Shown in pieces: positions 5,023-58,585 of a stretch of DNA of 64,000 nucleotides. This stretch comes from Candidatus Nomurabacteria bacterium (GTDB lineage Bacteria > Patescibacteriota > Minisyncoccia > Phycocordibacterales > SBAW01). The notes under the pieces are model-generated. The model had not been told where the DNA came from. It saw only the letters and a list, made by a program, of their open reading frames with translations, and made no database searches. Positions within the stretch are counted from its first letter, which is position 1; each line of letters opens with the position of its first letter. The stretch is taken from NCBI GenBank assembly GCA_943349945.1, contig CALQZS010000002.1:51278-115277 (forward strand). The letters run 5' to 3'. The position numbers and the translations under genes are program-made.

Positions 5023-5025
5023 CTT

Positions 5026-5058
5026 AACTAACCCACAAGTCAGACTTGTGGGTTAGTT
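5026..5058 (+). terminator. rho-independent terminator after mltG
   Basis: A 16-bp inverted repeat (aactaacccacaagtc / gacttgtgggttagtt) followed by a T-rich stretch. Confidence 0.6.
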
Positions 5059-5094
5059 CTGTCGTTTATCACAAAAAAGTGATACGCTCCAAAC

Positions 5095-6210: not shown

Positions 6211-6624
6211 ATGGTAAAGCAGCAGGGAACCGCGATACTTATATTTTTTCTGCTTGCATTATTAGTAGGGTGGTGGAGTTTGCCAGAGGAACACACAAAA
6301 CCATATACTGCCGCACCAACACAGCCCAAAGAGACTCTGCCTATTAAACACACAAGCGCCAGCACGACGCACACCTACAGCGGCGAGCTACCTATGGTGC
6401 GTGACTGTGACTCTTTTTCTACAAAAATAGAGACCGCGCATAAAGAATCTTTGCATGCCACTTTGTCGTTTGTGATTACCACCTCTCACGCCTGCGACAC
6501 CAAAACCGCACCAGCGAGCTTTGCGGTTTCGCTGGCAAGTCAGGGCGCTATACCGCCCACTATTGACCACGTACTCTTAAACGGAAATCCAGTAGCGTTT
6601 CGTATTATAGAAGCGCAGCCATAA
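6211..6624 (+). CDS. hypothetical membrane-anchored or secreted protein
   Basis: A 137-aa ORF with an N-terminal hydrophobic segment. TATACT at 6199-6204 lies 6 nt before the ATG. Confidence 0.55.
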   Translation: MVKQQGTAILIFFLLALLVGWWSLPEEHTKPYTAAPTQPKETLPIKHTSASTTHTYSGELPMVRDCDSFSTKIETAHKESLHATLSFVITTSHACDTKTAPASFAVSLASQGAIPPTIDHVLLNGNPVAFRIIEAQP

Positions 6625-9810: not shown

Positions 9811-10482
9811 ATGGACACTATACGCCTTGAAGACTCTTGGAAGAAACATCTGGAGCCTGAGTTTGCGCAATCCTACTTCCAGAAGCTCCGCACCTTTGTG
9901 CACGACGCATACACACAAAGCACCGTATACCCACCGCCCAAAAATCTATTTCGTGCGTTTGACCTATGCCCTTTCGACCAAACAAAGGTGGTGATATTGG
10001 GCCAAGACCCATACCACGGACCAGGGCAAGCAAATGGCCTGTGCTTTGCAGTAGAAGGGGACACGCCGCTGCCGCCGTCGCTGCAAAATATTTTTAAAGA
10101 AATCGAAAAAGAGTACGGCGTGCCTATGCAAAATAAAAACGGCGATCTTTCGCGCTGGGCTGCACAGGGGGTACTGCTTTTAAATGCGACACTCACCGTG
10201 GGGGCACGCTCACCTGGCTCGCACCAGCGCAAAGGCTGGGAAGAGTTTACCGACGCTGCAATACACGCACTATCGAAAGAGCGCGAGGGGTTAGTATTTA
10301 TGTTGTGGGGCAACTATGCAAAAAACAAAGGTGCGCACATTGACCGTAAAAAACATTTGGTGCTTGAGGCGCCACACCCGTCGCCTTTTTCTGCACACAG
10401 CGGATTTTTTGGCTGCGGCCACTTCAAACTCGCGAACGAATATTTAGCCGCGCACGGCAAAAAACCAATTGACTGGCTCTAA
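9811..10482 (+). CDS. ung: uracil-DNA glycosylase (family 1)
   Basis: Motifs GQDPYHGPGQA and HPSPFS. Confidence 0.9.
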   Translation: MDTIRLEDSWKKHLEPEFAQSYFQKLRTFVHDAYTQSTVYPPPKNLFRAFDLCPFDQTKVVILGQDPYHGPGQANGLCFAVEGDTPLPPSLQNIFKEIEKEYGVPMQNKNGDLSRWAAQGVLLLNATLTVGARSPGSHQRKGWEEFTDAAIHALSKEREGLVFMLWGNYAKNKGAHIDRKKHLVLEAPHPSPFSAHSGFFGCGHFKLANEYLAAHGKKPIDWL

Positions 10483-10517
10483 AAAACTAACGTAGTCAGA
10501 CTACGTTAGTTTTTTAC
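10482..10517. terminator. bidirectional rho-independent terminator between ung and pepO
   Basis: A perfect 11-bp inverted repeat (ctaacgtagtc a gactacgttag) flanked by an A-run and a T-run. Confidence 0.75.
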
Positions 10518-27642: not shown

Positions 27643-27751
27643 ACATACCTATATCGGCCGGAGACATGTTTTACCAAAAGGCAAAACAGTCGAGGCGGGG
27701 TCGCGGAAATTCCGAAGCGACGGCAAGGAATTATCTGTGACTATAAGGATT

Positions 27752-31671: not shown

Positions 31672-32350
31672 TAGGGGTGGCGAGGGTAGTAGGATTTCCA
31701 CCTACAACTCCGGGTCCCGAACCTGGCGTTTTGTTTTAAACTACACCCCCAAAAGAAGCTTGCTTTACCTGAAGATCGCTTCGATCATGGTTTGGAGTTT
31801 TTCGGCTAGACTCTTAAGTTTTCTTTTTAAACTTACGGGGACTACCCGCATCACCGAGTGGCTGGATACAGTCGCTGAAGCATCGTTCGCAAAGACGCTG
31901 TGCGTCTGTTTTATGATATATTCTCGTGATAAACGGGTTACTACCCCCAGAGAACAACCCATTGATGGTGTTCAGATCGGTCAGTGCTGCAATAGCTGCA
32001 GATGCCGAACGGTACAGGGATGGTGTTTTCGCAGTACTTCTCGACACCTGCAAAGGCAGTGGATTCGGTACCCCAAAGACATGCGCGAGCGGAGTCGGCT
32101 CACCTTTGGTGCAAAATCCGTCGAGACACAGAATGATCCTGCCGGATTCATCCCTCACACACAGCCGCAATCCTCTAGACTCAGTCCCGCGTGGTTCTGT
32201 CCAACAGGGCAGTATCTGCAACACCCATCGCTTTACCGTAGACCCCGCAGCAACGTGGAAATGGGTGGTTACTCCTTCACGAGGAGAGACGCGCGGCATG
32301 TTCATAACGAACCCCTTTCTTGTTCAACTAAAATCACAATACATACTAAA
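31672..32350 (-). other. GC-rich apparently non-coding island, candidate structured RNA of about 0.7 kb (identity unresolved)
   Basis: Long ORFs appear in five of six frames but with non-protein-like composition. GC3 is not elevated and rare codons are present. A minus-strand promoter-like TTGACT...TATGTA lies near 32350-32380 and a minus-strand terminator at 31642-31671. Confidence 0.4.
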
Positions 32351-42033: not shown

Positions 42034-42139
42034 AAAATTATCCCCACCGCACTGCTATGGTATTTGTGTAAAAAGCCCCATACTAGAAGGGCGGAAGCGG
42101 TCGAGCCGCACACCTATTTTCTTTCAAATCAAAAAGCGT

Positions 42140-54240: not shown

Positions 54241-54278
54241 AAACCAGGCCCTTTCTATCCCCATCTGTACCGCCAAAG

Positions 54279-54350
54279 TTATCCCCACCTGAGCTCCCGA
54301 AGGTCAGTCCTTCGCGAAGGACTGACCTTCGTAAGGAAAACTGTGGATAA
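54279..54350. repeat. 72-bp palindromic module, copy 1: TTATCCCCA - N10 - 34-bp perfect palindrome - N10 - TGTGGATAA
   Basis: DnaA-box-like 9-mers in inverted orientation (the second is a perfect DnaA box complement) flank the palindrome cgaaggtcagtccttcg/cgaaggactgaccttcg at 54298-54331. Confidence 0.7.
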
Positions 54351-54427
54351 GTCTTGCTGGTTTTGGCGCTATTTGCTACCCTAGCAAAAGTGACCAATTG
54401 TGGTCGATACAAAACAGGAGGGGGACA

Positions 54428-54730
54428 ATGTCCAAACCAATACAGTTCATTACAGTCAAACAACAAAGAACGATAGATTCTGACGCGCTTGCGCAGATTG
54501 TCGCAGACGCACGAAAACAAGACGCAAGCCTGTGCATCGCCGCCGCAGAATTACAGCGGAGGTACATGGCAGGTAAGGCCCTGCTTGGCCTAAGTCAAGA
54601 TCAGCAGATTGTCTTTTTTGGTTGCATCCATGAGGTTGGTAAGAAACCAACACTCACCACAACCTGGACTGCGCAAGATTTCATGGGACAGACTGTCCTG
54701 CAACAAGCAAACCTTTGGCTCCAAAGCTAG
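54428..54730 (+). CDS. hypothetical protein (100 aa)
   Basis: ORF from ATG 54428 with AGGAGGGGG immediately upstream. One of the few clear Shine-Dalgarno-like sites in the window. Confidence 0.5.
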   Translation: MSKPIQFITVKQQRTIDSDALAQIVADARKQDASLCIAAAELQRRYMAGKALLGLSQDQQIVFFGCIHEVGKKPTLTTTWTAQDFMGQTVLQQANLWLQS

Positions 54731-54742
54731 GGGCCGCCATAT

Positions 54743-54777
54743 AAAAAACCATCCGTACGGATGGTTTTCTTTTTTCT
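54743..54777. terminator. strong bidirectional rho-independent terminator
   Basis: aaaaccatccg tac cggatggtttt hairpin followed by CTTTTTTC. Confidence 0.9.
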
Positions 54778-54801
54778 TATCTAAACCCCTCGGGTTGTAG
54801 A

Positions 54802-55149
54802 TTAGGAGAGTTTAGTTATCTTAACCTCAAAGTAAGGTTGGCGATGTCCGCGCTTTTTAAAGTAGTTGCTCTTTGCTTTGTATTTGATAACCACCACCTT
54901 TTTGGCTTTGGCGATTTTTTGGATTTCTGCCGAGACTTTTGCCCCAGGGATAGTTGGTGTGCCGATGGTGGTGTTAGAACCATCGTCTACCAAAAGCACA
55001 TCAGTAAACACAAAAGAGTCGCCCACCTGGTGGTCGCCAGGCATCTTCTCGATTTTGAGTGTATCCCCTTCCGAGACAATATATTGCTTGCCGCCGGTCT
55101 GGATTACCGCAAACTCCTTTATTTCTGCTGTTTTTTCTGCTGTGGCCAT
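54802..55149 (-). CDS. rplU: ribosomal protein L21
   Basis: FAVIQTGGKQYIVSEGDTLKIEKM matches the L21 N-terminus. Confidence 0.9.
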   Translation of the reverse strand: MATAEKTAEIKEFAVIQTGGKQYIVSEGDTLKIEKMPGDHQVGDSFVFTDVLLVDDGSNTTIGTPTIPGAKVSAEIQKIAKAKKVVVIKYKAKSNYFKKRGHRQPYFEVKITKLS

Positions 55150-55212
55150 GCCAGAGTAATATACCTTACCCCAGAGCGGGGCGCAAGAGCCTTTGGTAGT
55201 CTGCTAAAACCC

Positions 55213-56313
55213 CTATTCCTTACCCTCTAAAATAGGCTTATCTAGCAGCCCTATGTCTATATTTATGTCTGTTGAGGCGTCTATTTTGAGCACGTCCTTT
55301 TCTATCTTGCCCAGCTCCTTGGTGCCCGCGTTATAGTGGTTAACCGTGGTCGAAAGCGATGCTCCGAGCTTTTTGTAATAGTCTTGGTAGGCGTTTATAT
55401 GCCGCCCTAGCGCCTCGACATTCTTAGCAATATCTTTTGCCTGCTCTTCTATCTTAAATGCTTTAAATCCATACAGCACCGACTGCAGGTAGGCAGCAAA
55501 GGTTGTGGGCGACACAATAATAACCTTGCGGTCGTTTTGCGCATAGTCCAGCAAGCTGCGCGTGTTGACCGCCCCCACCCCGTCGTTAAGCAGGTCGTAG
55601 TAAATACTCTCGGCAGGTATGTACATAAACGCAAAAGAAAGCGTGCCATCCTTGGGCCGCACATATTTACTGGTCTCGTCGATGCGCTTTTTGAGGTCGC
55701 GCTTGAATGCTTCTTCAAACTCTACCCGGCGAATGTCGTCTTTTTCGTCATGCAGACGGGTGTAGTTTTCTAGTGGAAATTTTGCGTCCACAGGGATAAT
55801 CCCCTCTTTGGTGCGAATTATTGCGTCCACCGTTTCGCCGCCAGGAAACTCGTACTGCATAGCGTAGGCGCCAGGCGGCAGGATGTTGCTCATCACCAGC
55901 TCTAGCGATGCCTCGCCCAAGTTACCGCGCTGCTTTTGGTTTTTGAGCACCTTTTCCAAATTCGATAACTGTTCGGCAATCACAAACACCTGCTTGGTAG
56001 ACTCCTGAGTTTGGGTCACCCCCTTAACCACCTCGATAAGCTGCTCGCTCACCTGTTTGGTAATAGTGGCCATCAGCGCGCGCGCTTGGTCGGACTGCTG
56101 GCTGATTTGGTTTGACTGCGACGACATAAACTCAGACATGTTCTTTGTCCCTTCTCCCAGTTTTGTATCCATGGCACGAGTGAGCTCGGCAAGTTGGTTT
56201 TGTAGCAACATCAACCCCTGCGTGTCCGCAGGCGCATCTGTTTTTGGACGCAGAAAAAAGTACGCAACCAGCCCCAAGTTAGCAACCAAAAGCACCACGA
56301 TAAGCCATTCCAT
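55213..56313 (-). CDS. rmuC: DNA recombination protein RmuC
   Basis: N-terminal TM, coiled coil and a RmuC nuclease-like C-terminal domain (VDAKFPLENY...). Confidence 0.8.
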   Translation of the reverse strand: MEWLIVVLLVANLGLVAYFFLRPKTDAPADTQGLMLLQNQLAELTRAMDTKLGEGTKNMSEFMSSQSNQISQQSDQARALMATITKQVSEQLIEVVKGVTQTQESTKQVFVIAEQLSNLEKVLKNQKQRGNLGEASLELVMSNILPPGAYAMQYEFPGGETVDAIIRTKEGIIPVDAKFPLENYTRLHDEKDDIRRVEFEEAFKRDLKKRIDETSKYVRPKDGTLSFAFMYIPAESIYYDLLNDGVGAVNTRSLLDYAQNDRKVIIVSPTTFAAYLQSVLYGFKAFKIEEQAKDIAKNVEALGRHINAYQDYYKKLGASLSTTVNHYNAGTKELGKIEKDVLKIDASTDINIDIGLLDKPILEGKE

Positions 56314-56342
56314 ACCCCTATTCTACATGATAGAATGCCAGA

Positions 56343-56795
56343 ATGACACAAAATGACCTGCGAGAATCGATGAAGGACGCTATGCGTGCCAAAGATACAG
56401 TGCGCTTGTCTGTTATACGCGGCATTTTAACCATGGTCACCAACGACCTCGTAGCTAAAGGCAATAAACCGACCGACACACTACCCGAAGACGACATCAT
56501 GGCGCTCGTGCGCCGCGCCGCAAAACAGCGCAAAGACTCTATAGAGCAGTTCGAAAAAGGTGGCCGCGCTGACTTGGCCGAAACAGAAAAAGCCGAACTT
56601 GTGATACTTGAGAGCATGCTCCCCGCGCAGATGCCTGAGGACGCGGTGCGCGCAGCGGCAGTGGCCAAAGCAGCAGAGCTGGGTATCACCGACAAAACAA
56701 AAGCAAATCAACTCATGGGCGCCTTGATGAAAGACCTTAAAGGCAAAGCGGATGGCTCGGTAGTAAAAGCCGTGGTAGAGAGTTTGTTTGCGTAG
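56343..56795 (+). CDS. yqeY: GatB/YqeY domain protein
   Basis: YqeY-like motif (LRESMKDAMRAKDTVRLSVIRGI...). Confidence 0.8.
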   Translation: MTQNDLRESMKDAMRAKDTVRLSVIRGILTMVTNDLVAKGNKPTDTLPEDDIMALVRRAAKQRKDSIEQFEKGGRADLAETEKAELVILESMLPAQMPEDAVRAAAVAKAAELGITDKTKANQLMGALMKDLKGKADGSVVKAVVESLFA

Positions 56796-56799
56796 TGTC

Positions 56800-58080
56800 C
56801 TACTCCAACCTGTTTGAAACCTCTAAGTGAGATTCTTTTTTGGGGAACATCTCCCTCCAGATTTGTTTAAATTTATCTAGACGCGTGGGCATTGGCGCCG
56901 CCAGCGGGTGCGGGTCGAGGTTGGGCATCACCTCCATTTGCGGTGGCGCCTCTTGGTAGTCCCACAGCGCTTGCAGTGCCGCAACCACCTCTTGCGGACT
57001 TGCCATGACCATTTGGGTCATATACAAGCTCGAGTTAACCCGGAATATCTCGCGTTGCGAACTTTCGTTGGTGCGCATAATAGCTGCAGACAAGGTGGCA
57101 GGCGACGCGTCGGGCACCACAAGACCATTGACCCCGTCTTTAATAAGCGCGTGCGTTATCTTGGTATCCACCGCGATAATGGGTGTGTGTGCCGCCGCAG
57201 CGCGGATAAAAGCATCTTCGTTTTCTTCGCCGCCAGAAAGATATAAAAAGATGTTGGCGGTTTTAAGACACGACACCAACGCCTGCGCATCTTCAAAATG
57301 TACCCACGAGCGGAGTCCACGGATCCACGCACGCAGACGCCACCACCATTTACTCCCACCCAACGCGACCACAATCAGCCCAGCTTTTTGATAGGACGGA
57401 TTTGCCCGCAGCAGCGCCAACGTACCCAAAGCGGCAGAGAGCTTTTTTTTGCTCCCCAATGTCGTAGCAACTAATAATGAAAAATTTATCTCTGGGTATT
57501 TTTGTTTAACATCAAATAGTAGTGGTTCTTTGTCTGCACTTTCAGTATCGTATAAACGCGGGAATACAATTATTTTATCTTCATGATGTGCCGCGGTTAC
57601 AGACAAGTACAGTCGGGTTATATCCGAAAAAATACAGATACGGTGTGCAAGCGGCAACACCAGGGACAGTGGCATGGCCCCAAAAAAACTCAGTGGTTGG
57701 CGAAATGCGCGGGCACCCCACTCGTAGGTGCGGATGTTAACCACCCACACCTTGTCGTACCAAAACGCGAGCCACGCCCCTGCCCACCCGCTGGCACGCA
57801 CATCGTCGGAGTACACCACGTGCGCGCGGAACTCCTTTTGCCACGACACCTGAAAGCGCGCCGTGCGCATCATGGACAGTGCTTTAAATCCGAAAAATGA
57901 ATTGGTGGGATATATCCATGCGTGGTCGTTGAGCTTTTTTGTTTGGAAGCCGCTTCCGCGCCTAGTCCACACCACCACATGCAGCACATCTGCGGCACTA
58001 ACCAAGCCGTCGAGAAATTTCTGCTCTTTGCCGCCTTCTTTTAAAAACTCGGTGTTGGTGGTCAAAAACAACACGTGCAT
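56800..58080 (-). CDS. glycosyltransferase family 1 (GT4-like)
   Basis: C-terminal GT1 motif (PIIAVDTKITHALIKDGVNGLVVP). Start is at MHVLFLTTN (ATG 58080), with TATACT 6 nt upstream on the minus strand (58087-58092). The R/K-rich ORF-track extension was rejected. Confidence 0.8.
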   Translation of the reverse strand: MHVLFLTTNTEFLKEGGKEQKFLDGLVSAADVLHVVVWTRRGSGFQTKKLNDHAWIYPTNSFFGFKALSMMRTARFQVSWQKEFRAHVVYSDDVRASGWAGAWLAFWYDKVWVVNIRTYEWGARAFRQPLSFFGAMPLSLVLPLAHRICIFSDITRLYLSVTAAHHEDKIIVFPRLYDTESADKEPLLFDVKQKYPEINFSLLVATTLGSKKKLSAALGTLALLRANPSYQKAGLIVVALGGSKWWWRLRAWIRGLRSWVHFEDAQALVSCLKTANIFLYLSGGEENEDAFIRAAAAHTPIIAVDTKITHALIKDGVNGLVVPDASPATLSAAIMRTNESSQREIFRVNSSLYMTQMVMASPQEVVAALQALWDYQEAPPQMEVMPNLDPHPLAAPMPTRLDKFKQIWREMFPKKESHLEVSNRLE

Positions 58081-58234
58081 AGCTGTAGTATACCCCCAAA
58101 ACTGGCGGCGGGTCTTTTGCCCTCTCTTCCCTTTTCTGCTATGCTGTGTTCGTGCTGGTTTTGGCCCTAGGCGCTTCGCGCGTAGGACCTCGCTCGCTCG
58201 CATAAGAGAACAAGCTCTCTTTGCTCACTCGCTC

Positions 58235-58306
58235 GGCCCTATCGTCTAACGGTTAGGACAGCGCCCTCTCACGGCGTAAATTGGGGTTCGATTCCCCATA
58301 GGGTCA
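58235..58306 (+). tRNA. tRNA-Glu (anticodon CUC)
   Basis: Cloverleaf: acceptor GGCCCTA/TAGGGTC, D-arm GTCT-AACGGTTA-GGAC, anticodon stem GCGCC/GGCGT with loop CTCTCAC, T-arm TGGGG-TTCGATT-CCCCA, discriminator A. CCA is not encoded. Confidence 0.8.
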
Positions 58307-58318
58307 TGGATAAAAGAA

Positions 58319-58347
58319 AATACCGCCATAGTGCGGTATTTTCTTTT
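58319..58347 (+). terminator. rho-independent terminator after tRNA-Glu
   Basis: aataccgc catagt gcggtatt hairpin followed by TTCTTTTGG. Confidence 0.7.
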
Positions 58348-58444
58348 GGCCAATATGATCGCCCTAAGGCGAGAATCGAAAAGCGCAGGCGTGACGACGC
58401 CGAGCCGGGGTCGCGAGATTTTCCAGCAGGAAAATACTTGTGAC

Positions 58445-58461
58445 CGATTCCCCATAGGGTC
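58445..58461 (+). repeat. 17-bp direct repeat of the tRNA-Glu 3' end (CGATTCCCCATAGGGTC)
   Basis: Identical to 58289-58305 (T-loop through the acceptor 3' strand). This looks like an att-site-type scar. Confidence 0.6.
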
Positions 58462-58512
58462 GCAAGCGAGTTTGCTGACGAGCAAATTCGACTTGTGACC
58501 ACAAACAAAAAG

Positions 58513-58585
58513 TTATCCCCAGTTTTCCTTACGAAGGTCAGTCCTTCGACGAAGGACTGACCTTCGTAGAGGGAGTTGTGGATAA
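58513..58585. repeat. 73-bp palindromic module, copy 2: TTATCCCCA - N10 - 35-bp palindrome - N10 - TGTGGATAA
   Basis: Same architecture and spacing as copy 1. The palindrome cgaaggtcagtccttcg a cgaaggactgaccttcg lies at 58532-58566. Confidence 0.7.

What the first reader, a model, noticed from the sequence alone, without database searches (positions are those of the whole stretch)
54279..58585. Two copies of a ~72-bp module (inverted DnaA-box-like 9-mers flanking a 34-35-bp palindrome) bracketing a 4.2-kb segment next to dnaB-recR and a tRNA
Copy 1 is at 54279-54350 and copy 2 at 58513-58585. Both have TTATCCCCA, a 10-nt spacer, a palindrome (cgaaggtcagtccttcg / cgaaggactgaccttcg), a 10-nt spacer and TGTGGATAA. 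TGTGGATAA is the exact complement of the consensus DnaA box TTATCCACA. The flanking 9-mers are inverted relative to each other, so each module is one long imperfect palindrome. Further related 9-mers occur at 42038 (TTATCCCCACC), 6163 (GTGGATAAG) and 46170 (TGTGGATAT). The copies flank hyp-rplU-rmuC-yqeY-GT-tRNA-Glu and lie immediately after dnaB-recR. Possible roles are a bipartite oriC-like or DnaA-regulated element, a MITE/REP-like repeat family, or bidirectional terminators or insulators.
Basis: partly seen in the sequence, partly recalled or inferred. Interest (0 to 1): 0.75.

Follow-up and report, generated by a model that had tools for sequence, protein, structure and literature searches.

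The report
REP-type palindromic repeats, not an origin
The two 72-bp modules are copies of a small palindromic repeat scattered between genes of an uncultivated Candidatus Adlerbacteria genome, and the same genome encodes a REP-type tyrosine transposase flanked by that repeat, so this is a REP/REPIN-type element rather than a replication origin.

Summary

The module is not unique. Same-species DNA just outside the window has two more full copies. A second contig of the same MAG has three more (a doublet, a singlet and a partial copy).

That second contig encodes a 227-aa Y1/HUH transposase, P0041. A full module lies 38 nt upstream of its start codon. Its stop codon lies inside a module hairpin that is followed by TGTGGATAA. 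The AlphaFold model of P0041 matches E. coli TnpA-REP (PDB 4er8) best. The HUH and Tyr motifs are invariant in 25 homologs.

Three other Adlerbacteria species carry the ortholog between ftsK and rplJ, flanked by box-plus-hairpin units with compensatory stem changes. A fourth has hairpins but no box.

Each module is therefore an inverted doublet of a REP unit: 9-mer box, 10 nt, 17-nt hairpin. This is the REPIN/BIME arrangement.

Nothing supports an origin: no dnaA, no box cluster, no GC-skew switch, and at least seven copies.

The identity of the box to the DnaA-box consensus remains unexplained. I found no paper describing REP-RAYT systems in Patescibacteria, so this is a new member of a known kind.

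The parts
54279..54350 (.). Module copy 1: REPIN-like doublet (72 nt), two inverted REP units head to head, between the recR stop (54240) and the hyp100 start (54428)
54279..54287 (+). Copy 1 left 9-mer box TTATCCCCA ('C-box')
54298..54314 (+). Copy 1 REP hairpin a: CGAAGG-TCAGT-CCTTCG
54315..54331 (+). Copy 1 REP hairpin b: CGAAGG-ACTGA-CCTTCG, the reverse complement of hairpin a. Followed by TAAGGAAAAC, as at the 3' end of the transposase gene.
54342..54350 (-). Copy 1 right 9-mer box TGTGGATAA, i.e. TTATCCACA on the minus strand ('A-box'); identical to the DnaA-box consensus
58513..58585 (.). Module copy 2: REPIN-like doublet (73 nt, one central A), 207 nt after tRNA-Glu and 55 nt before the pspC-like gene (58640)
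58513..58521 (+). Copy 2 left box TTATCCCCA
58532..58548 (+). Copy 2 REP hairpin a: CGAAGGTCAGTCCTTCG
58550..58566 (+). Copy 2 REP hairpin b: CGAAGGACTGACCTTCG
58577..58585 (-). Copy 2 right box TGTGGATAA (TTATCCACA on the minus strand)

Best explanation
The modules are non-autonomous REP-type elements. The basic unit is a 9-mer box (TTATCC[A/C]CA), exactly 10 nt of variable spacer, and a 17-nt hairpin (CGAAGG-N5-CCTTCG).

In this species two units sit head to head in inverted orientation. The whole 72-73 nt can therefore fold into one long hairpin in single-stranded DNA or RNA. This is the REPIN/BIME arrangement. A 55-nt singlet form also exists: box, 10 nt, one hairpin, 10 nt, box.

The same genome has one gene for a REP-associated-type Y1/HUH tyrosine transposase (P0041, 227 aa). 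That gene is flanked by these very sequences, as in a REPtron.

Inferred mechanism, by analogy with E. coli TnpA-REP and IS200/IS605 TnpA: the transposase binds the hairpin in single-stranded DNA, for example at replication forks. It then cleaves and rejoins near the foot of the hairpin, which spreads or maintains the elements in intergenic space. The conserved box at a fixed 10-nt distance would be part of the recognition or cleavage site.

Shown here: the repeat family, its intergenic dispersal, its physical association with the transposase gene in four species, and the fold and motifs of the protein.

Inferred: that P0041 actually mobilises the modules, and any host-level role such as mRNA 3'-end stabilisation.
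For: (1) Dispersal. There are four full copies in window plus or minus 10 kb: 54279, 58513, and -7569 and -1412 relative to the window start (L096 1279-1351 and 7436-7508). All are intergenic between co-directional genes (recR/hyp100, tRNA-Glu/pspC, atpC/RTX-repeat protein, DUF5671/leuS).

(2) Contig 8 of the same MAGs that hold the window contig (GCA_943359535.1, GCA_943353435.1) encodes P0041. A full module lies 38 nt upstream of its ATG (L110 9890-9962). The stop codon TGA lies inside CGAAGGACTGACCTTCG, followed by TAAGACAAAC TGTGGATAA. A singlet lies at L110 8517-8571.

(3) In Adlerbacteria GW2011_GWA1_54_10 the ortholog P0001 (57-58% identical) is flanked by inverted TTATCCACA-spacer-GCGAAGGTCAGACCTTCGC units. 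Solo units occur elsewhere in that genome.

(4) Sister species with 81% identical transposases (P0032, P0046) have box-10-hairpin-10-box singlets at the gene. Their stems carry compensatory changes (CAAAGG/CCTTTG). One singlet is syntenic with the L110 singlet.

(5) Protein. Pfam Y1_Tnp scores 23.6 bits against a cutoff of 23. The best NCBIfam hit is REP_Tyr_transpos. N86-H87-x-H89 and Y147-x-H149-x-N151 are invariant in 25 homologs. The AF2 model has pLDDT 76.7 and pTM 0.80. The top Foldseek PDB hit is 4er8_A, 'REP associated tyrosine transposase bound to a REP hairpin' (E 1.6e-4, prob 1.0). IS608 and ISDra2 TnpA follow.

(6) The gene sits between ftsK and rplJ-rplL in five genomes, which is consistent with single-copy vertical descent typical of RAYTs (PMC5581495).

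(7) Doublets of inverted REPs forming a hairpin, with conserved ends and variable spacers, match the published REPIN definition (PMC3116915).
Against: - The genome-wide copy number is unknown. Only about 98 kb of this species could be read, and 7 copies is small compared with classical REP families.
- No presence/absence polymorphism was seen among same-species contigs, so there is no direct sign of recent mobility.
- The canonical GT[AG]G guide tetranucleotide 5' of the hairpin foot is absent. GTAG, GTAA or GTGA occur only at the 3' foot as part of the extended stem.
- The NCBIfam RAYT equivalog score is far below its cutoff (32.8 against 80). Sequence-only PDB matches are insignificant (E about 0.5).
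- A more distant ortholog (L119) has flanking hairpins but no box, and no dispersed copies in 41 kb.
- The exact identity of the box to the DnaA-box consensus is not explained by this model.
Confidence: 0.85

Rival explanations
1. DnaA-related element. The inverted TTATCCACA-type boxes bind DnaA, and the modules act as a bipartite origin, a datA/DARS-like titration or reactivation site, or DnaA-regulated operators for the downstream genes.
For: - TGTGGATAA is a perfect reverse complement of the DnaA-box consensus, and a chance match of a conserved 9-mer to it is unlikely.
- The box is conserved in REP units of at least four species whose transposase identity falls to 57-58%.
- It always lies exactly 10 nt, about one helical turn, from the hairpin.
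- A solo TTATCCACA is conserved upstream of mraZ in many Adlerbacteria.
Against: - No dnaA or dnaN within the window plus or minus 10 kb, and none in 1.7 Mb of fetched loci by tblastn.
- Only two boxes per module, one of them off-consensus at position 7.
- No enrichment of boxes outside the modules: 19 with up to 1 mismatch against 13.7 expected.
- No GC-skew turning point.
- At least 7 dispersed copies, including the flanks of a transposase gene, which an origin would not have.
- A distant ortholog's REPs lack the box.
- DnaA binding as a secondary property of the REP units is not excluded.
Confidence: 0.07
2. Classical MITE: a deletion derivative of a DDE-transposase insertion sequence, with the inverted 9-mers as terminal inverted repeats, inserted with a target-site duplication.
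For: The elements are short, palindromic, intergenic and dispersed, with inverted terminal 9-mers. The ends T-TA-TCC...GGA-TA-A would allow a TA duplication.
Against: - No direct repeats flank the copies beyond the shared box itself.
- No DDE transposase appears in any locus read.
- The only gene found flanked by the same box-plus-hairpin sequences is a Y1/HUH transposase, in four species.
- The internal hairpin and box are perfectly conserved while the spacers vary. This fits recognition of structure rather than decay of an insertion sequence.
Confidence: 0.05
3. Host-selected RNA or DNA structure with no mobility: bidirectional terminators, insulators or mRNA 3'-end stabilisers that merely share a sequence.
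For: - Copies 1, 3, 4 and 5 start 0-39 nt after a stop codon.
- The hairpins are very stable on both strands.
- REPs in E. coli are known to stabilise upstream mRNA and can terminate transcription (PMC6006769 background).
Against: - No T-tract follows the stem, and the scan for terminator-like sites does not call the modules.
- This genome's real terminators are A-run/GC-stem/T-run hairpins.
- Copy 2 lies after such a terminator (58312-58347).
- Convergent evolution of an identical 34-nt core plus boxes at unrelated loci is implausible without copying.
- Such a role may well be a secondary effect of REP insertion.
Confidence: 0.03

Closest known systems
REPIN-RAYT systems of Pseudomonas and Enterobacteria (Bertels & Rainey 2011, PMC3116915; Bertels et al. 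2017, PMC5581495; E. coli TnpA-REP structure, PDB 4er8)
   Same: - Short extragenic palindromes occur as inverted doublets that form one long hairpin, with conserved ends and less conserved spacers.
- There is one Y1/HUH transposase gene per genome, flanked by its own REPs.
- The gene sits at a conserved chromosomal position across related species.
- The protein model matches 4er8 best.
   Different: - The host is an ultrasmall Patescibacteria genome. tnpA-REP-like genes were reported to favour larger genomes (PMC6006769).
- The two hairpins abut (0-1 nt apart) instead of being separated by a spacer.
- A conserved 9-mer lies 10 nt outside each hairpin, and there is no 5' GT[AG]G guide.
- The protein is longer (227 aa) with a variable tail encoded by the REP itself.
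- Only 7 copies were seen.
TnpA-Y1 class 2 REPtrons, especially subclass 2.4 with 'double foot' REPs (Quentin et al. 2018, PMC6006769)
   Same: - HUH motif of the N-H-[IFV]-H type.
- REPs are found both flanking and, in-frame, inside the gene. L119 has a hairpin inside the ORF, and P0005 has one at L102 933.
- The singlet with a matching element on both sides of one hairpin resembles a 'double foot' REP derived by central deletion of an inverted dimer.
   Different: - The Y motif is YVHLNP, not YIxNNP.
- The 'WQ' position reads FQ or SQ.
- The feet are 9-mers set 10 nt away from the stem, not GT[AG]G/C[TC]AC tetranucleotides.
- Subclass assignment was not tested by phylogeny.
IS200/IS605 family (IS608, ISDra2) TnpA and their subterminal hairpins
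   Same: The Y1/HUH fold appears among the next-best Foldseek hits and in the weak profile hits. Recognition of imperfect hairpins in single-stranded DNA is the likely chemistry.
   Different: The gene appears to be single-copy and syntenic rather than a multicopy insertion sequence. There is no tnpB. The hairpin units are dispersed without the gene.
DnaA-box clusters (oriC, datA, DARS)
   Same: Each module contains the perfect 9-mer TTATCCACA.
   Different: There is no cluster, no dnaA neighbourhood and no skew switch. The element is multicopy and attached to a transposase gene.

Membership tests
REP/REPIN-RAYT system | Short (about 20-65 nt) imperfect palindrome able to form a stem-loop | tested here: met
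   17-nt hairpin CGAAGG-N5-CCTTCG. The whole module folds at -40.7 to -47.5 kcal/mol, z -5.2 to -7.2. Stems show compensatory changes between species (CGAAGG/CCTTCG versus CAAAGG/CCTTTG).
REP/REPIN-RAYT system | Many copies dispersed in extragenic space | tested here: inconclusive
   7 copies in about 98 kb of this species. Six are intergenic at five unrelated loci; the seventh overlaps the 3' end of the transposase ORF. The whole-genome count could not be obtained: the collections lack this species and walking is blocked.
REP/REPIN-RAYT system | REPs arranged as inverted doublets that form a hairpin (REPIN/BIME) | tested here: met
   5 of 6 complete copies are inverted doublets with 0-1 nt between the hairpins. 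This matches the definition in PMC3116915.
REP/REPIN-RAYT system | A cognate tnpA-REP (RAYT) gene flanked by the same REPs (REPtron) | tested here: met
   P0041 lies on contig 8 of the same MAGs. A full module lies 38 nt upstream, and a hairpin plus box lies at the stop codon. The same arrangement is seen in three other species.
REP/REPIN-RAYT system | Protein is a Y1/HUH enzyme with an HUH motif, a catalytic Tyr and the TnpA-REP fold | tested here: met
   HUH (H87, H89) and Y147 are invariant. Pfam Y1_Tnp is just above its cutoff for P0001. The Foldseek top hit is 4er8_A at E 1.6e-4, prob 1.0. Caveat: the NCBIfam REP_Tyr_transpos equivalog scores 32.8, below its cutoff of 80.
REP/REPIN-RAYT system | RAYT is single-copy and vertically inherited | tested here: inconclusive
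   One locus was found for this species, at the same ftsK...rplJ position in five genomes. Absence of further copies in the unseen part of the genome was not tested.
REP/REPIN-RAYT system | GT[AG]G guide tetranucleotide 5' of the hairpin foot | tested here: not met
   The 5' foot reads CTAC, TTAC, CCAC or CTCC. GTAG, GTAA, GTGA or GTGG occur at the 3' foot as an extension of the stem. Some published classes also lack GT[AG]G (PMC6006769).
REP/REPIN-RAYT system | RAYT binds, cleaves and mobilises its REPs | not testable with these tools
   Needs biochemistry or population data. No presence/absence polymorphism was seen among same-species contigs.
Chromosomal replication origin (oriC) | Cluster of several DnaA boxes, usually next to dnaA/dnaN | tested here: not met
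   There are two boxes per module, only one of them perfect. There is no dnaA in the window plus or minus 10 kb and no cluster.
Chromosomal replication origin (oriC) | GC-skew turning point; unique in the genome | tested here: not met
   Cumulative skew falls steadily from about 46 kb to 64 kb with no turning point at 54-58 kb. There are at least 7 copies.
MITE of a DDE insertion sequence | Terminal inverted repeats plus a target-site duplication, and a related autonomous insertion sequence | tested here: inconclusive
   Inverted 9-mers are present. No flanking direct repeats were found. No DDE transposase appears in any locus read. The gene associated with the repeats is a Y1 enzyme.
Intrinsic (rho-independent) terminator | GC-rich stem directly followed by a T/U tract | tested here: not met
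   There is no T tract after either copy, and the scan does not call them. The genome's own terminators have A and T tracts.

The most novel reading that the evidence does not exclude
The REP units of this Adlerbacteria lineage carry a perfect DnaA box at a fixed one-helical-turn distance from the hairpin, conserved across species whose transposases are only 57-58% identical. The repeat population could therefore double as a dispersed set of DnaA-binding sites, for titration or reactivation in the manner of datA/DARS. Alternatively it could use DnaA or the replication machinery to target or time Y1-transposase action on single-stranded DNA. Either way, a selfish or domesticated repeat would be linked to replication control in a genome of under 1 Mb.
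Probability: 0.08. Interest if true: 0.8.

Novelty: new member of a known kind. Interest (0 to 1): 0.45.

Why it matters
It removes a false origin candidate and explains why assemblies of this organism break at these sites.

It also shows that REP/REPIN-type repeats with a cognate RAYT-like transposase exist, apparently by vertical descent, in ultrasmall Patescibacteria genomes. The transposase family is large: more than 3,300 database homologs at E<=1e-5, and those that carry a source name come mostly from Parcubacteria/Paceibacteria MAGs. I found no paper describing it in this phylum.

Published surveys associate these genes with larger genomes. The CPR clade is therefore a useful test of the idea that REPIN-RAYT systems persist because they benefit the host.

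The REP unit is unusual. It has a 9-mer identical to the DnaA box set 10 nt from the hairpin, and the transposase stop codon lies inside its own REP. This gives concrete substrates for biochemical work.

Tried and rejected
- Exact-core scans (TCAGTCCTTCG-N0-2-CGAAGGACTGA) found nothing in genome contigs, metagenome contigs or viral contigs. The pattern works locally, so the collections do not hold this species.
- No box...box module occurs in 80 related Adlerbacteria loci, 1.19 Mb.
- Rfam gives only spurious miRNA-hairpin matches below threshold on the modules.
- An idea that the boxes (TGTGG/TGGGG) are MraZ-type TGGGN repeats was rejected. The mraZ operator of this species has clear 10-nt-period TGGGR repeats. 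The module arms show only a weak, inconsistent version, and the association with the transposase explains the boxes better.
- The 4.2-kb segment as an invertible or excisable unit was rejected. All contigs that span it have the same orientation, and it holds housekeeping genes.
- Integron attC and dif/Xer sites were considered from memory and rejected because the core motifs do not fit.
- Single-sequence phmmer of P0041 against the PDB gave nothing relevant. The profile search gave only E about 0.5 hits to 4er8 and ISDra2 TnpA, so the fold search was needed.
- tblastn with an E. coli DnaA fragment written from memory found no dnaA in any fetched locus. The true origin could therefore not be examined.

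Full report
**Observation**

- Copy 1 (54279-54350): TTATCCCCA, CCTGAGCTCC, CGAAGGTCAGTCCTTCG, CGAAGGACTGACCTTCG, TAAGGAAAAC, TGTGGATAA.
- Copy 2 (58513-58585): TTATCCCCA, GTTTTCCTTA, the same two 17-mers separated by one A, TAGAGGGAGT, TGTGGATAA.

The 17-mer core occurs 8 times (both strands, up to 3 mismatches) against 0.08 expected. TTATCCMCA occurs 7 times against 0.44 expected.

Each 17-mer is itself a 6-bp hairpin. The whole module folds into a long hairpin on either strand, at -40.7 to -47.5 kcal/mol and z -5.2 to -7.2. The right arm of copy 1 is 93% complementary to the left arm of copy 2.

**Context**

The window is housekeeping DNA of an uncultivated Candidatus Adlerbacteria (Patescibacteria). 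The closest RecR relatives, 75-77% identical, are Adlerbacteria/Paceibacteria MAGs. The gene order around the finding is as follows:
- cysS, dnaB, recR (all +)
- copy 1
- a 100-aa orphan gene (+)
- a canonical bidirectional terminator (54743-54770)
- rplU (-), rmuC (-), yqeY (+), glycosyltransferase (-)
- tRNA-Glu(CTC) (+) and its terminator
- about 160 nt of structured sequence
- copy 2
- a pspC-like gene (+)

There is no dnaA and no transposase in the window plus or minus 10 kb. Cumulative GC skew has no turning point at 54-58 kb. DnaA-box-like 9-mers with up to 1 mismatch number 19 against 13.7 expected, with no cluster. The only two perfect boxes are the ones in the modules.

**The module is a dispersed repeat**

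I extended the window by 10 kb on each side using a same-species contig (CALRHU010000001.1). This revealed two more full copies, at -7569..-7497 and -1412..-1340 relative to the window start (L096 1279-1351 and 7436-7508). They lie between atpC and an RTX-repeat protein, and between a DUF5671 gene and leuS.
- Their 34-nt core is identical to the window copies.
- The box-to-hairpin distance is again exactly 10 nt.
- The spacer sequences differ.
- They lie in the opposite orientation (TTATCCACA on the left, TGGGGATAA on the right).

Every complete copy in this species therefore has one TTATCCCCA arm and one TTATCCACA arm.

All same-species contigs carry the copies. Several short-read contigs end inside the palindrome. 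This is what a perfect palindrome or repeat does to de Bruijn assemblers.

**Link to a transposase**

The exact core is absent from the public collections. A relaxed pattern (box, N10, CGAAGG, N5, CCTTCG) found three loci in groundwater metagenomes. Each carries a half-module: TTATCCACA, about 10 nt, and a single hairpin GCGAAGGTC-A-GACCTTCGC.

In L100 two such units in inverted orientation flank a 227-aa ORF. The 3' hairpin contains the stop codon. The ORF scores as follows:
- Pfam Y1_Tnp: 23.6 bits, cutoff 23.
- Best NCBIfam hit: REP_Tyr_transpos, 32.8 bits, below the equivalog cutoff of 80.
- It is identical to a protein of Adlerbacteria GW2011_GWA2_54_12.
- It has more than 3,300 homologs at E<=1e-5; the few that carry a source name are from Parcubacteria/Paceibacteria MAGs.

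The C-terminal tails of these homologs are hypervariable and read like translated hairpins (AKV*, KGQTF, TKDRPL...). I predicted that the window species' protein should end in ...TKD, from ACG AAG GAC TGA. That prediction singled out P0041.

P0041 is encoded on contig 8 of the very MAGs that carry the window contig (GCA_943359535.1, GCA_943353435.1). Its surroundings are as follows:
- A full module lies 38 nt upstream of the ATG (L110 9890-9962).
- The stop codon is inside CGAAGGACTGACCTTCG, followed by TAAGACAAAC TGTGGATAA. This is the same arm as the right side of copy 1.
- A 55-nt singlet (box, 10 nt, one hairpin, 10 nt, box) lies 1.4 kb upstream (L110 8517-8571).

This gives 7 copies in about 98 kb of this species.

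**Protein identity**
- In an alignment of 25 homologs, N86-H87-x-H89 (HUH) and Y147-x-H149-x-N151-P are invariant or nearly so.
- Sequence searches of the PDB are weak. The only hits, at E about 0.5, are E. coli TnpA-REP (4er8) and ISDra2 TnpA, aligned across these motifs.
- The AlphaFold2 model (pLDDT 76.7, pTM 0.80) has 4er8_A as its top Foldseek hit: 'REP associated tyrosine transposase bound to a REP hairpin', E 1.6e-4, prob 1.0. IS608 and ISDra2 TnpA follow.

**Comparative support**

The gene lies between ftsK and rplJ-rplL in five genomes: L107, L110, L116, L117 and L119.
- Sister species with 81% identical proteins have singlets with both boxes at the gene. Their stems changed in a compensatory way (CAAAGG...CCTTTG).
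- One singlet (L117 12034) is syntenic with the L110 singlet.
- In L117 and L118 the gene itself is inverted in place between its flanking repeats.
- A more distant ortholog (L119, same genome as L029) is flanked by inverted ACTTCAAGGAC[C/G]GTCCTTGAAGT hairpins, with a third copy in frame inside the gene. It has no box and no dispersed copies in 41 kb.
- The 80 RecR-anchored loci of other Adlerbacteria contain no box...box module.

Expansion into doublets therefore appears specific to the window lineage.

**Interpretation**

These features match the published REPIN-RAYT/REPtron picture:
- extragenic palindromes organised as inverted doublets that form a hairpin;
- conserved elements separated by less conserved spacers;
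- one cognate Y1 transposase gene flanked by its own REPs and inherited vertically (PMC3116915, PMC5581495, PMC6006769).

The singlet with a matching element on each side resembles the 'double foot' REPs of TnpA-Y1 subclass 2.4. The in-frame REP insertions also recall that subclass.

The differences are these:
- no GT[AG]G guide 5' of the foot;
- a conserved 9-mer set 10 nt from the stem;
- abutting hairpins;
- a longer protein whose tail is encoded by the REP;
- a host genome far smaller than those in which tnpA-REP-like genes were reported to be common.

I found no paper linking RAYTs or REPINs to Patescibacteria in the searchable library.

Mobilisation by P0041 is inferred, not shown. The genome-wide copy number could not be measured.

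**What remains unexplained**

The box is identical to the DnaA-box consensus. It keeps that sequence in species whose transposases are only 57-58% identical. DnaA binding as a secondary property cannot be excluded. A solo TTATCCACA is also conserved upstream of mraZ in many Adlerbacteria.

The origin reading itself is rejected. The terminator reading fails for lack of a T tract, and because copy 2 follows a canonical terminator.

**Seen in passing**

The 200 nt between tRNA-Glu and copy 2 contains a conserved structured RNA motif of about 95 nt.
- In an 11-sequence alignment, 17 of 26 predicted pairs show compensatory changes. Two G-U pairs are kept in 11 and 9 of the 11 sequences, which points to RNA on the plus strand.
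- A covariance model finds 27 instances in the fetched loci. There are up to three in tandem after tRNA-Glu in relatives. In the window it finds 58360-58448, a half unit at 58457-58500, and 27648-27745 after dnaJ.
- A shorter version follows rplL on contig 27 of GCA_943353435.1 (L114).
- Rfam has nothing there.

Noticed in passing
window 58360-58448, 58457-58500 (half unit), 27648-27745; L114 about 6535-6600; relatives e.g. L045 7915-8009, L060 14526-14721, L068 19265-19614: A conserved structured RNA motif of about 95 nt: GGCCGGAGC, variable hairpin, CGAGGCGGGG, then a long rod closed by GGTCGCGAG/CTTGTGACC with a GACG loop. 17 of 26 predicted pairs show compensatory changes, and two G-U pairs are kept in 11 and 9 of 11 sequences, so it is RNA on the plus strand. 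It occurs up to three times in tandem after tRNA-Glu in Adlerbacteria, and also after dnaJ and rplL. There is no Rfam match. Function unknown; possibly a new ncRNA or a 3'-UTR element of highly expressed genes.
   Followed up: partly
window 58445-58462: A second copy of the 3' end of tRNA-Glu (CGATTCCCCATAGGGTC) lies about 140 nt downstream of the real tRNA, embedded in the first structured unit. The same is seen in L064. It could be an integration scar or a tRNA-like module.
   Followed up: partly
window 54241-54742: recR and rplU are directly convergent neighbours in most of 80 related genomes. Here about 500 bp lie between them, holding module copy 1 and a 100-aa orphan gene with no tblastn match in those relatives and no Pfam hit.
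   Followed up: partly
just beyond the window end, about 64020-64120 (L002 20400-20500): The region upstream of mraZ shows TGGGR repeats with a 10-nt period (an MraZ-operator-like pattern), preceded by a solo TGTGGATAA. A TTATCCACA at this syntenic position is conserved in at least 14 related genomes, in several followed 4-11 nt later by a hairpin.
   Followed up: partly
window 5025-5059 and 10479-10517: Two long perfect palindromes are centred on GTCAGAC and share AACTAAC...AGTCAGACT...GTTAGTT. The centre is the same as in the REP hairpin of related species (GGTCAGACC). Similar palindromes occur in L042 and L074. They may be a second REP-like type or simply terminators.
   Followed up: partly
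window 42038-42048: An intergenic solo box, AAAATTATCCCCACC, matches the left end of copy 1 (AAAGTTATCCCCACC) but has no hairpin after it. It may be a REP remnant.
   Followed up: no
L117 and L118 10001-10693 compared with L110 and L116: In the species carrying P0046 the transposase gene is inverted in place relative to its otherwise collinear neighbours. This is consistent with recombination between its flanking inverted REPs.
   Followed up: no
L003, L005, L008, L010 (contig ends): Several short-read contigs of this species stop 13-20 nt past the centre of the palindrome, so the modules break assemblies.
   Followed up: yes
window 31681-31750 (-): Rfam calls a second tRNA here (47.1 bits) that ARAGORN did not report.
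   Followed up: no
L028 19273-19319, L050 2047-2084, L052 8834-8870 and 19239-19294, L082 19231-19273: Other Adlerbacteria carry 'palindromes of palindromes' (two inverted copies of a short hairpin) with unrelated sequences. These are probably analogous REP doublets of their own transposases. One sits at a scaffold gap.
   Followed up: no
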